A DNA stretch of 64,000 bases, from NCBI RefSeq assembly GCF_030013595.1, contig NZ_CP122768.1. One strand, given 5' to 3'. This DNA comes from Escherichia coli. GTDB taxonomy: Bacteria > Pseudomonadota > Gammaproteobacteria > Enterobacterales > Enterobacteriaceae. The position numbers were made by a program. How positions within the stretch are numbered: the stretch's first letter is position 1; every line of letters starts with the position of its first letter. Shown piece by piece: positions 13,601 through 16,600 of this stretch.

Positions 13601-16600
13601 ATTTCACCGGCGGCGACTTTCGCTTTTAGCTGCTCGTAATATTCATAAACATCGTGATCCGGGCACCACCAGTTCGCTTGCTGGTTTTTCAGCAAATCGG
13701 AGCCCCACAGCACAATGGTTTTGCTGTTCTGCAATACCAGCGGCCAGGAGGTTTGCTGTTCATACACTTCCATCGAACCGACTACGCGCGGCAGGATCAC
13801 CTGCGCAGCACCGGTAGAGTAATCTCCGCCCGTACCAACGCTATTACCATGCAAGGCAATCGCTTTCGCCAGCATCCCCGAAGCGTTATGGAACATCCCC
13901 GTCGATTGCCAACCACTGGCGGTCAGCAAGGCACTCGGCCCGTGCGTTTTCTGCACACGTTCCAGTTCTTCATAGAACATGTCGAGGGCTTCATCCCAAC
14001 TCACGCGCACAAAACGGTTATCACCGCGCTGGGAGGTGTCGCTCAGATGGCGCTTACGCAGCCAGTCCACACGTACCATCGGGTAACGAATACGCGCCGC
14101 GTTGTGTACGTGATCCGGCAATCCGGCGATCATTTTCGACGGATATTTATCCAGTTCGAACGGTTTTGCCGCCACAAAGCGACCATCCTTCACCGTCGCG
14201 CGGATAGCCCCCCAGTGCGACCCGGTAAGAATGCCCTCTTTCGAGGTGACAGCCTCAGTCGCCGCTTGCGCCGCAGTCGCACTGCGCGGCGTTAACAATG
14301 ACGGCCCCAGCATCCCGGCGACGGTTAAGCCGCCGAGTTGTGCCAGAAAACGCCGACGTGATGCCTGAAAGAGATCGTTATTGTTCATTATTTTTCTTCC
14401 TTCTTATCGCCGTGAGCCTTACCTGCGGTGTCAGACGCATTCATTTGCAGATATTTCAACAAGGTGCGTTCTTCACGTTTATCGAGGCTGGTAAAGCCAA
14501 TCATGCCGTTGAGCGTGCCGATCCAACCGTTAGCGTCAAAGTGAGAGATTTCCGGTGCGCCGTGGCACTGGTTACAGGTGCCGTTGTACAACGAATCAGC
14601 ATAAGCCCAGATCGGTTTGATATCGTTCACCATGTCACCTTTCTTCATCCACGCAGTGGCCTGCAACTTGCTCCACTCGGTATCAGTGTCGGCAACGGTG
14701 GTTTTCTCCAGCGTTTTCACCTGCTGCTGCACATCACCACGAATCGAGGCAACAAAGATGCGTTTGCCAGGGAACTGGGTGAGTACACGCTGACGTCCGG
14801 CGCTTTCTGTCCAGCCGGTAATTTCAATTTGCAGCCAGTCGCCGTCACGTTTAAGGACTTTCACTTCCGAGGCAGGCAGCAGAGAACCAGAGGCTTCTTT
14901 ATCGCCTTTCGCCGCATAAATCGGCTTAATATCAATGGAGTACAGTGTGTCGCCACTGCCATTAGCACTGGCGCGCAGCTCATCGAACTGCTTACGGAAG
15001 CCGCTACTCATATCCGGCAACTGGTGGGCAATACCTTTATGACAGTCGATGCAGGATTGATTATCTTTCGCTGCCACCTTCATCTGACGCGCCGCTTCAG
15101 GATGCTGCTTCGCATGATCCATCGCGTCGTAGTTATGGCAGGAGCGGCAGGTTGCCGAGTTGTTTTCTTTCATTCGCGCCCATTCACGCTCGGCAAGTTC
15201 CGCGCGTTTGGCTTCGAATTTTTCAGGTGTATCAATAGAGTGGGCAATAAAGGTCTGGTAGATATCGTTGCTCGCTTCCAGTTTGCGCTTCACCATGCCT
15301 GGAATATCCGGCGGGATATGACAGTCATGGCATTCAGCTCGCACGCCAGAGGCGTTCTGGAAATGCACCGACTGTTTATATTCTTCATACACCGGTTGCA
15401 TACTGTGGCAACTGACACAAAATTCGGTTGTGCTGGTGACTTTGATCCCAACGTGTGGCAATACAATCAGCGCAATGCCAATCACAATCCCAATAGCGAC
15501 CAGCGCCAGTACCGACCAACGAGCACTGGGTCGGCGTAGCGCGTTCCAGAATTTCCGCATAATAGCCCCTGTAAAATTATGGTTTAGTGAAGCGATCTTA
15601 ATGAGTAAATATGAACAGCGGCACTGGTCAGGATGAACGGCTTACGGCAGAATATGAACAGATATGAACAGAATGAGTAAAACTCTCTGATGCCACATCA
15701 CATTGTTATTGTTGAAGATGAGCCGGTTACCCAGGCGCGATTACAATCCTACTTCACTCAGGAGGGGTATACCGTTTCCGTTACGGCGAGCGGTGCCGGG
15801 CTGCGGGAAATTATGCAGAATCAGCCGGTGGATTTAATTCTGCTGGATATCAATTTGCCCGATGAAAATGGCCTGATGTTAACTCGCGCCCTGCGAGAAC
15901 GCTCAACGGTAGGGATTATTCTGGTTACCGGACGCAGCGATCGGATTGACCGTATTGTTGGGCTGGAAATGGGTGCAGACGATTATGTCACCAAACCGCT
16001 GGAACTGCGCGAACTGGTGGTACGAGTGAAAAATCTGCTCTGGCGAATCGACCTCGCGCGACAGGCGCAACCACTCACTCAGGACAACTGCTATCGCTTT
16101 GCGGGTTATTGCCTGAATGTGTCGCGCCATACGCTGGAGCGAGATGGCGAGCCAATTAAACTGACCCGCGCAGAGTATGAAATGTTGGTGGCATTTGTGA
16201 CGAATCCGGGCGAAATTCTCAGCCGTGAACGTCTGCTGCGTATGCTTTCTGCGCGTCGGGTGGAAAACCCTGACCTGCGCACCGTCGATGTGTTAATTCG
16301 TCGTTTACGCCATAAACTCAGCGCGGATTTACTGGTGACACAACATGGCGAAGGTTATTTCTTAGCCGCTGATGTGTGCTGATAAAAATAGACCGGACGA
16401 AATCCCCCTGGTGACAGCGAGCGGCGGATATGTTCACGGTCAGCATTTTTCGGCGTCATGACTAAAATCGGTGGGCTGACATTATCAGACACCGATTGCC
16501 CCTGTAATTGCCTGATGGCCTGCTCAACCGCCAGTTCCCCCTGCCAGACCATTTGATCGCTGGCAGCCATAATCACTCTTCCCCGCTTCAGCCCGCGATA

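What the first reader, a model, noticed from the sequence alone, without database searches (positions are those of the whole stretch)
15600..15690. Four tor boxes, two directly tandem, in the torR-torC divergent region
The decamer ATATGAACAG (reverse complement CTGTTCATAT, the TorR recognition box) occurs at about 15609, 15652 and 15663, with a degenerate copy GGATGAACGG at 15631. Copies 3 and 4 abut each other immediately upstream of the torR start at 15690. This matches the known torCAD/torR control region.
Basis: partly seen in the sequence, partly recalled or inferred. Interest (0 to 1): 0.2.

Follow-up and report, generated by a model that had tools for sequence, protein, structure and literature searches.

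The report
Known TorR boxes between torR and torC

Summary
CTGTTCATAT occurs exactly three times in the window, all on the minus strand and within 63 bp: 15609-15618, 15652-15661 and 15662-15671. The degenerate copy CCGTTCATCC lies at 15631-15640. All four sit in the 129-bp gap between torC (minus strand, ATG at 15560) and torR (plus strand, ATG at 15690).

The four boxes are base-for-base identical to E. coli K-12, where the tor boxes were defined, and TorR here is 228/230 identical to K-12 TorR. In literature numbering the abutting pair is box 1/box 2, the degenerate copy is box 3, and the torC-proximal copy is box 4.

Box 3 is not significant on sequence alone. However, its GTTCA core, the TTCATAT of box 4, the 21/22-bp spacing and a -10 hexamer 8 bp after box 4 are conserved in five genera.

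Verdict: already known, low interest.

One side result is not a property of this window. Among 5426 complete E. coli genomes the box1-box2 tandem varies from 1 to 4 copies (14, about 5323, 74 and 4 genomes), and one strain has a 43-bp box2-to-box4 deletion. The 3-copy allele lies on at least four haplotypes, which points to recurrent slippage.

The parts
15662..15671 (-). tor box 1 (CTGTTCATAT), the distal half of the high-affinity TorR site
   Evidence: Exact match; identical to K-12; sequence as published.
15652..15661 (-). tor box 2 (CTGTTCATAT), which abuts box 1 in a 10-bp register
15631..15640 (-). tor box 3 (CCGTTCATCC), a low-affinity degenerate box starting 21 bp after the start of box 2
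   Evidence: The GTTCA core is invariant in 14 sequences from 5 genera. It is described as a 7/10 low-affinity box.
15609..15618 (-). tor box 4 (CTGTTCATAT), the promoter-proximal box, starting 22 bp after the start of box 3
   Evidence: TTCATAT is invariant across 5 genera.
15595..15600 (-). Inferred torC -10 hexamer TAAGAT, 8 bp downstream of box 4. The implied transcription start is near 15588, giving a leader of about 28 nt.
   Evidence: Inference. The hexamer sits at a fixed 8-bp distance from box 4 in all 14 sequences (TACTAT in Grimontia). PMC10845959 places the -10 over ...AAGAT. The consensus scan found no full sigma-70 promoter, as expected for an activator-dependent promoter.
15625..15630 (+). 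Inferred torR -35 hexamer TGGTCA, which reads TGACCA on the torC strand
   Evidence: Inference. TGACCAGT is conserved in Escherichia, Salmonella, Edwardsiella and Providencia but not in Grimontia. It lies 17 bp upstream of CAGAAT.
15648..15653 (+). Inferred torR -10 hexamer CAGAAT, overlapping the end of box 2. The implied torR start is near 15660, inside the box 1-box 2 tandem.
   Evidence: Inference from the sequence. It agrees with the published statement, recalled from Ansaldi 2000, that box 1-box 2 covers the torR start site. It is below the threshold of the scan (8 of 12 matches).
15690..16382 (+). torR, an OmpR/PhoB-family response regulator that binds the boxes
   Evidence: NCBIfam NF008034 at 426.9 bits against a cut-off of 275. 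Pfam Response_reg plus Trans_reg_C. 228/230 identical to K-12 TorR, with an identical DNA-binding domain.
14388..15560 (-). torC, the first gene of torCAD, the operon activated from the boxes
   Evidence: NF011606 at 879 bits; RefSeq annotation.
11842..14388 (-). torA, the TMAO reductase
11246..11845 (-). torD, the TorA chaperone
16355..17383 (-). torT, the periplasmic TMAO-binding protein
17466..20210 (+). torS, the sensor kinase that phosphorylates TorR

Best explanation
The four decamers are the tor boxes, the binding sites of the response regulator TorR in the divergent torR-torCAD control region of E. coli. TMAO bound by TorT activates the sensor TorS, which phosphorylates TorR. TorR, phosphorylated or not, occupies the abutting box 1-box 2 pair (15652-15671). 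This high-affinity site overlaps the torR promoter and start site, so torR represses itself. Phosphorylated TorR then extends cooperatively to the weaker box 3 (15631-15640) and box 4 (15609-15618). These lie two helical turns apart on the same face of the DNA. Box 4 ends 8 bp before the -10 hexamer, where a -35 element would otherwise be, so TorR there is placed to recruit RNA polymerase to torCAD. Shown here: the sequence, positions, spacing, identity to K-12, intact cognate genes and cross-genus conservation. Taken from the literature: TorR binding, the affinity hierarchy, autoregulation and the same-face requirement. Inferred here: the exact -10 and -35 hexamers and the start sites.
For: Exact boxes and their statistics. 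Start-to-start spacing of 10, 21 and 22 bp. Boxes identical to K-12 MG1655, with 4 SNPs in the 129-bp region, all outside the boxes. Published box sequences and gel shifts of TorR on boxes 1, 2 and 4, with box 3 weak: PMC9239176. TorR-P binds the torCAD promoter whereas ArcA-P and FNR do not: PMC10845959. Unphosphorylated and phosphorylated TorR both bind the high-affinity sites and block RNA polymerase, citing Ansaldi 2000: PMC5294996. TorR, TorC, TorA and TorT pass equivalog cut-offs. TorR is 99% identical to K-12 with an identical winged-helix domain. The region is present at 95-100% identity in 5416 of 5426 complete E. coli genomes. Phylogenetic footprint in 14 sequences from 5 genera: outside the ascertained boxes 1-2, the invariant columns are GTTCA of box 3, TTCATAT of box 4, four bases of the -10 and one spacer base. 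Between-genus identity is 0.75, 0.86 and 0.87 for these three elements, against 0.30-0.59 in spacers and flanks.
Against: Nothing contradicts it. There are three limitations. No binding experiment can be run here. The two primary papers (Simon 1995, Ansaldi 2000) are not in the held library, so the details of affinity, start-site overlap and helical phasing rest on my recollection plus secondary citations. The cross-species loci were ascertained through an exact box1-box2 20-mer, so conservation of boxes 1-2 is circular and only boxes 3 and 4, the spacing and the -10 are independent tests. The simple promoter scan finds no sigma-70 site on either strand, so the promoter hexamers are inferred.
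Confidence: 0.96

Rival explanations
1. The repeats are a chance or slippage-generated short tandem repeat with no regulatory role.
For: Box 3 alone is statistically unremarkable. The tandem does change copy number by slippage in natural strains.
Against: The chance expectation for three exact copies in a cluster is about 1e-10. The boxes, their spacing and their distance to the -10 are conserved in genera whose TorR is only 53-87% identical, while the spacers are not conserved. TorR binding has been published.
Confidence: 0.01
2. The boxes are sites for ArcA, the closest paralogue of TorR, whose TGTTA-type direct repeats resemble TGTTCA, and they confer anaerobic control.
For: The ArcA model is the second-best hit for TorR (214.9 bits). 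PMC10845959 notes that predicted ArcA motifs overlap the TorR sites.
Against: The same paper reports that ArcA-P did not bind the torCAD promoter whereas TorR-P did.
Confidence: 0.02
3. The GTTC/GAAC cores of the boxes serve mainly as targets of a DNA phosphorothioation (Dnd) system that competes with TorR, as reported in Salmonella Cerro 87.
For: PMC9239176 shows that DndCDE binds tor boxes and lowers torCAD transcription in a dnd-positive Salmonella.
Against: That is an extra layer found only in dnd-carrying strains. I did not look for dnd genes outside the window, and the annotation of the first 50 kb of the window shows none. It does not replace TorR binding.
Confidence: 0.01

Closest known systems
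E. coli K-12 torR-torCAD control region (tor boxes 1-4; Simon et al. 1995 Mol Microbiol 17:971; Ansaldi et al. 2000 J Bacteriol 182:961)
   Same: All four boxes, their order, orientation and 10/21/22-bp spacing are identical. The intergenic length of 129 bp and the flanking genes are the same, and TorR is 228/230 identical.
   Different: There are four SNPs outside the boxes, at window 15684, 15606, 15574 and 15565. At three of them (15606, 15574, 15565) the window carries the base also found in E. albertii and E. whittamii. The flanking 1180 bp is a fairly divergent haplotype, with 27-33 differences from other phylogroups.
Salmonella enterica tor boxes (PMC9239176)
   Same: The published Cerro 87 box sequences match the window exactly: boxes 1, 2 and 4 are CTGTTCATAT and box 3 is CCGTTCATCC. 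The layout and the TAAGAT -10 at 8 bp were seen here in two other Salmonella, subsp. arizonae and diarizonae.
   Different: The spacers and the torR leader differ. S. arizonae box 3 is CCGTTCATTC. The S. enteritidis promoter was reported inactive in an E. coli reporter.
PhoB pho boxes and OmpR-family direct-repeat sites in general
   Same: The regulator is a winged-helix OmpR/PhoB-family protein (Trans_reg_C) that binds direct repeats with a period of about 10 bp. The proximal site sits next to the -10 in place of a -35 element. This comparison rests on established knowledge of the family.
   Different: The decamer sequence is different. The array is split into a high-affinity tandem plus two single boxes two helical turns apart. 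The distal tandem also acts as the operator of the divergent regulator gene.

Membership tests
tor boxes of the E. coli torR-torCAD control region | Four direct repeats of the decamer CTGTTCATAT (three exact copies, and box 3 as CCGTTCATCC), all in the torC orientation | tested here: met
.
tor boxes of the E. coli torR-torCAD control region | Location in the short intergenic region between divergently transcribed torR and torC | tested here: met
   The 129-bp region lies between torC (ATG at 15560, minus strand) and torR (ATG at 15690, plus strand).
tor boxes of the E. coli torR-torCAD control region | Boxes 1 and 2 abut, and boxes 3 and 4 follow at about two helical turns, on the same face of the DNA | tested here: met
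   Start-to-start spacing is 10, 21 and 22 bp. The spacing is conserved in 5 genera, and the one length change between genera (P. vermicola) is exactly +10 bp.
tor boxes of the E. coli torR-torCAD control region | Sequence identity with the experimentally characterised K-12 sites | tested here: met
   All 40 box bases are identical to MG1655.
tor boxes of the E. coli torR-torCAD control region | An intact cognate regulator TorR with an OmpR-type DNA-binding domain | tested here: met
tor boxes of the E. coli torR-torCAD control region | Physical binding by TorR (footprint or gel shift) and dependence of torC and torR expression on the boxes | not testable with these tools
   This has been published for identical sequences (also Simon 1995 and Ansaldi 2000, which are not held). 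It has not been done for this strain.
Activator-dependent promoter of the PhoB/OmpR type (proximal site replaces the -35) | No recognisable -35 element, with the activator site immediately upstream of the -10 | tested here: inconclusive
   The scan found no sigma-70 consensus promoter. Box 4 ends 8 bp before a conserved TAAGAT. The start site was not mapped here.
Molybdenum-cofactor riboswitch (Rfam Moco RNA motif) in the torC leader, as suggested in PMC10845959 | A match to the Rfam covariance model | tested here: not met
   No Rfam family reached the gathering score anywhere in the intergenic region. The only hit at E<=10 in 15350-15750 was IsrR at 15.4 bits, E 0.62. The inferred leader is only about 28 nt long.

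The most novel reading that the evidence does not exclude
The window itself carries the ordinary two-copy state. Across E. coli, however, the box1-box2 high-affinity TorR site behaves as a short tandem repeat that changes recurrently in 10-bp steps, one helical turn each, between 1 and 4 copies. These steps keep every box on the same DNA face. Such alleles could act as heritable settings of torR autorepression and torCAD inducibility rather than as neutral noise. I found no description of this polymorphism in the held literature.
Probability: 0.3. Interest if true: 0.45.

Novelty: already known. Interest (0 to 1): 0.12.

Why it matters
For this window it matters only as correct annotation: these 63 bp are the operator and activator sites that couple TMAO sensing to expression of the TMAO respiratory chain and to torR autoregulation. 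The side observation could matter a little more. A transcription-factor site array whose copy number drifts by slippage in natural isolates, including UTI89 and O121, O26 and O157 STEC strains, offers a ready-made allelic series. That series could test how the number of high-affinity sites sets autorepression and induction in a two-component system.

Tried and rejected
(1) The sigma-70 promoter and terminator consensus scan of 15450-15800 found nothing on either strand. The promoter hexamers are therefore inferred from conservation and spacing, not from the scan.

(2) Rfam scans at the gathering score (whole window) and at E<=10 (15350-15750) gave no RNA family in the intergenic region. The Moco-riboswitch idea from PMC10845959 gets no sequence support here.

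(3) I considered a fifth box directly after box 4, TTACTCATTA, which matches the consensus at 5/10 (6/10 in K-12 as TTGCTCATTA). I also considered the 10-bp direct repeat TTTACTCATT that flanks the array. I rejected both as TorR sites because neither is conserved outside Escherichia.

(4) The primary papers could not be retrieved.

(5) Hits on 'plasmids' are non-mobilizable records of 0.09-4.9 Mb. These are chromosomal pieces labelled as plasmids, not a mobile tor locus.

(6) Five of the 20 genome hits to the tandem 20-mer lie in Bacteroidales, Lachnospiraceae, Clostridia or Synergistaceae MAGs with no TorR or TorC homologue nearby. I treated them as unrelated.

(7) The first MAFFT alignment misplaced the P. 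vermicola 10-bp insert. I replaced it with an anchored ungapped comparison.

(8) The extra BLAST 'places' at first suggested a second genomic copy of the site. They turned out to be overlapping alignments caused by three- and four-copy tandems at the same locus.

Full report
**Observation**

Reading 15400-15900 and searching the decamer shows CTGTTCATAT exactly three times in the 64-kb window. All three are on the minus strand: 15609-15618, 15652-15661 and 15662-15671.

Only 0.15 exact matches are expected by chance, and none of 100 shuffles gave three. From base composition, the expected number of three-copy same-strand clusters within 63 bp is about 1e-10.

The degenerate copy GGATGAACGG (CCGTTCATCC on the minus strand) lies at 15631-15640. 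With three mismatches it is not significant on its own: 0.33 such hits are expected in the intergenic region, and 389 three-mismatch hits occur window-wide. One- and two-mismatch hits elsewhere in the window occur at chance frequency, 49 observed against 42.7 expected.

**Identity of the locus**

- The region lies between a minus-strand ORF at 14388-15560 and a plus-strand ORF at 15690-16382.
- These ORFs and their neighbours pass the NCBIfam equivalog cut-offs for TorC, TorR, TorA and TorT.
- A RefSeq E. coli record that is 100% identical annotates torD-torA-torC, torR, torT and torS in the same order.
- The 129-bp intergenic region is present at 95-100% identity in 5416 of 5426 complete E. 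coli genomes.

**Comparison with the characterised promoter**

- Against K-12 MG1655, all four boxes are identical. The intergenic region differs at four positions outside the boxes: window 15684, 15606, 15574 and 15565.
- PMC9239176 gives the tor boxes as CTGTTCATAT (boxes 1, 2 and 4) and CCGTTCATCC (box 3, a low-affinity 7/10 match). It also reports gel shifts of TorR on boxes 1, 2 and 4.
- In literature numbering, which runs in the torC direction, box 1 is 15671-15662, box 2 is 15661-15652, box 3 is 15640-15631 and box 4 is 15618-15609.
- TorR here is 228/230 identical to K-12 TorR. Both differences lie outside the Trans_reg_C DNA-binding domain, so the K-12 experiments should transfer.

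**Independent support from other genera**

- One inexpensive scan of 100,044 species genomes for the box1-box2 20-mer returned 20 loci.
- Fifteen of them are tor loci, from Escherichia albertii, E. whittamii and E. coli, Salmonella enterica subsp. arizonae and diarizonae, four Edwardsiella, three Providencia and two Grimontia. Thirteen show torR and torC diverging from the tandem. In P. vermicola (L010) and G. celer (L023) the fetched DNA ends just upstream of the tandem, so only torC was seen. Grimontia TorR is only 53% identical.
- The other five loci are MAG contigs with no tor genes.
- Boxes 1-2 are fixed by the way these loci were found, so they are not a test. Everything downstream of them is.
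- In an anchored comparison of 14 sequences, the only invariant columns beyond boxes 1-2 are GTTCA in box 3, TTCATAT in box 4, four bases of a hexamer lying exactly 8 bp after box 4 (TAAGAT; TACTAT in Grimontia), and one spacer base. The spacers and flanks have 0-1 invariant columns.
- The 21- and 22-bp spacings are kept throughout. The single length change is exactly +10 bp: an extra degenerate box, TTATTCACAT, in P. vermicola.
- This footprint is what makes box 3 credible.

**Mechanism**

Start-to-start spacings of 10, 21 and 22 bp put all the boxes on one face of the helix.

The following comes from my knowledge of Simon et al. 1995 and Ansaldi et al. 2000. Neither paper is held. PMC5294996 and PMC9239176 partly corroborate them.
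- Box 1-box 2 is a high-affinity site bound by TorR whether or not it is phosphorylated.
- That site covers the torR start, which gives TMAO-independent negative autoregulation.
- Boxes 3 and 4 are low-affinity sites filled cooperatively by TorR-P, and they must lie on the same helical face as the high-affinity site.
- PMC10845959 additionally reports that TorR-P binds this promoter whereas ArcA-P and FNR do not.

My own inferences from sequence and conservation are these:
- The torC -10 is TAAGAT at 15600-15595, with a start near 15588 and a leader of about 28 nt. There is no -35 element, and box 4 occupies roughly -30 to -21.
- The torR -35 is TGGTCA at 15625-15630, conserved as TGACCAGT in the four enterobacterial genera. 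The torR -10 is CAGAAT at 15648-15653, overlapping box 2, with a start near 15660.
- The consensus scan finds no promoter on either strand. That fits a weak torR promoter and an activator-dependent torC promoter.

**Comparison with known systems**

This is the canonical tor control region, not a variant of it. It works like other OmpR/PhoB-family direct-repeat sites. The nearest solved structures to TorR include the TorR receiver domain (1ZGZ), ArcA, BaeR and KdpE. No Rfam family, including the Moco motif, matches the torC leader.

**Side result, outside the window**

Odd 'extra places' in the BLAST statistics led to a test with a synthetic query carrying three tandem boxes. It matched natural genomes at 100% identity in a single piece. 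Junction-specific queries then counted the alleles among 5426 complete genomes.

| Allele at the distal tandem | Genomes | Basis | Verified examples |
|---|---|---|---|
| 1 copy | 14 | | O157:H7 PV15-279, RMDEC465 (119-bp intergenic region) |
| 2 copies (standard) | about 5323 | by subtraction | window, K-12, Nissle 1917, O111:H8, O145:H28 (129 bp) |
| 3 copies | 74 | | UTI89, O121 RM8352, O26 97-3250, S21, ECCHD184, STEC299, ES3 (139 bp) |
| 4 copies (signature) | 4 | | MBT-5 (149 bp) |
| 43-bp box 2-to-box 4 deletion | 1 | | OkiPb01695 (86 bp; two abutting boxes next to the -10 spacer) |

- Over 1180 bp of flanking sequence, the three-copy allele sits on at least four haplotypes. Each is only 1-9 differences from a two-copy neighbour: UTI89 to Nissle 4, ECCHD184 to K-12 1, the O26 group to O111:H8 1.
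- The four-copy MBT-5 is identical in its flanks to the three-copy O26 haplotype.
- This pattern indicates recurrent, stepwise slippage.
- Box 3 also varies: CTGTTCATCC in UTI89, CTATTCATCC in STEC299 and CCATTCATCC in O145:H28.
- I found no paper on this polymorphism in the held library, which does not prove it is unreported. Its functional effect is untested.

**Verdict**

The finding is real, correctly interpreted and already known. Interest is low. The window carries the modal four-box allele.

Noticed in passing
Related loci L026, L028-L035, L039 (E. coli genomes); the corresponding window site is 15652-15671: The box1-box2 tandem varies in copy number among 5426 complete E. coli genomes. 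It has 1 copy in 14 genomes, 3 copies in 74 (including UTI89, NU14, O121:H19 and O26 97-3250), 4 copies in 4 (MBT-5 verified) and 2 copies in the rest. The 3-copy allele lies on at least 4 flanking haplotypes, so the slippage is recurrent.
   Followed up: yes
L024 (E. coli OkiPb01695); corresponds to a deletion of window 15609-15651 or the equivalent: A singleton allele has a precise 43-bp deletion between the identical boxes 2 and 4. It removes box 3 and the inferred torR promoter hexamers and leaves two abutting boxes directly upstream of the torC -10 spacer. An assembly error has not been excluded.
   Followed up: partly
L028, L033, L038 (box 3 position; window 15631-15640): Box 3 is polymorphic within E. 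coli: CTGTTCATCC in UTI89 (closer to the consensus), CTATTCATCC in STEC299 and CCATTCATCC in O145:H28 RM13514.
   Followed up: no
L010 (Providencia vermicola), directly after box 2: An extra degenerate third tandem box, TTATTCACAT (7/10), lengthens the box 2-box 3 interval by exactly one helical turn.
   Followed up: partly
window 15600-15609 and 15672-15681: The 10-mer AATGAGTAAA (TTTACTCATT on the torC strand) flanks the box array on both sides. It is exact in this strain because of the A variant at 15606, and 9/10 in K-12. It is not conserved outside Escherichia and its meaning is unknown.
   Followed up: partly
window 15623-15630: ACTGGTCA (TGACCAGT on the torC strand), between boxes 3 and 4, is conserved in Escherichia, Salmonella, Edwardsiella and Providencia even though it lies in a spacer. 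It is a candidate torR -35 element.
   Followed up: partly
window 15541-15588 (torC leader and first codons): PMC10845959 proposes a molybdenum-cofactor-responsive element in the torC 5' UTR and early coding region. No Rfam family matches there, and this strain differs from K-12 at 15574 and 15565 within that leader.
   Followed up: partly
window 15000-16300: The tor region of this window is a divergent haplotype. It has 27-33 differences per 1180 bp from the representatives of other phylogroups that I compared, and only 204 of 5416 genomes are at least 99% identical over 701 bp.
   Followed up: no
window 41158-41245 and 41694 onward: A tRNA-Ser gene is followed by lambdoid prophage tail genes (tail fiber assembly, tail fiber, Lom, gpJ and others). 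An Rfam IS009 hit lies at 41737-41935 inside the tail-fiber-assembly gene region.
   Followed up: no
window 11156-11234 and 21916-22338: There is an Rfam naRNA4 (REP-derived nucleoid-associated RNA) hit between cbpM and torD. There is also a cspA-type thermoregulator hit covering cspG (21970-22182) and the leader upstream of it.
   Followed up: no
window 16355-16382: The convergent genes torR and torT overlap by 28 bp at their 3' ends, as in K-12.
   Followed up: no
L005, L007, L011, L013, L019 (MAG contigs): The exact 20-mer tandem also occurs in five Bacteroidales, Lachnospiraceae, Clostridia or Synergistaceae MAG contigs with no tor genes nearby. L007 has a near-triple tandem. These are probably unrelated.
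   Followed up: partly
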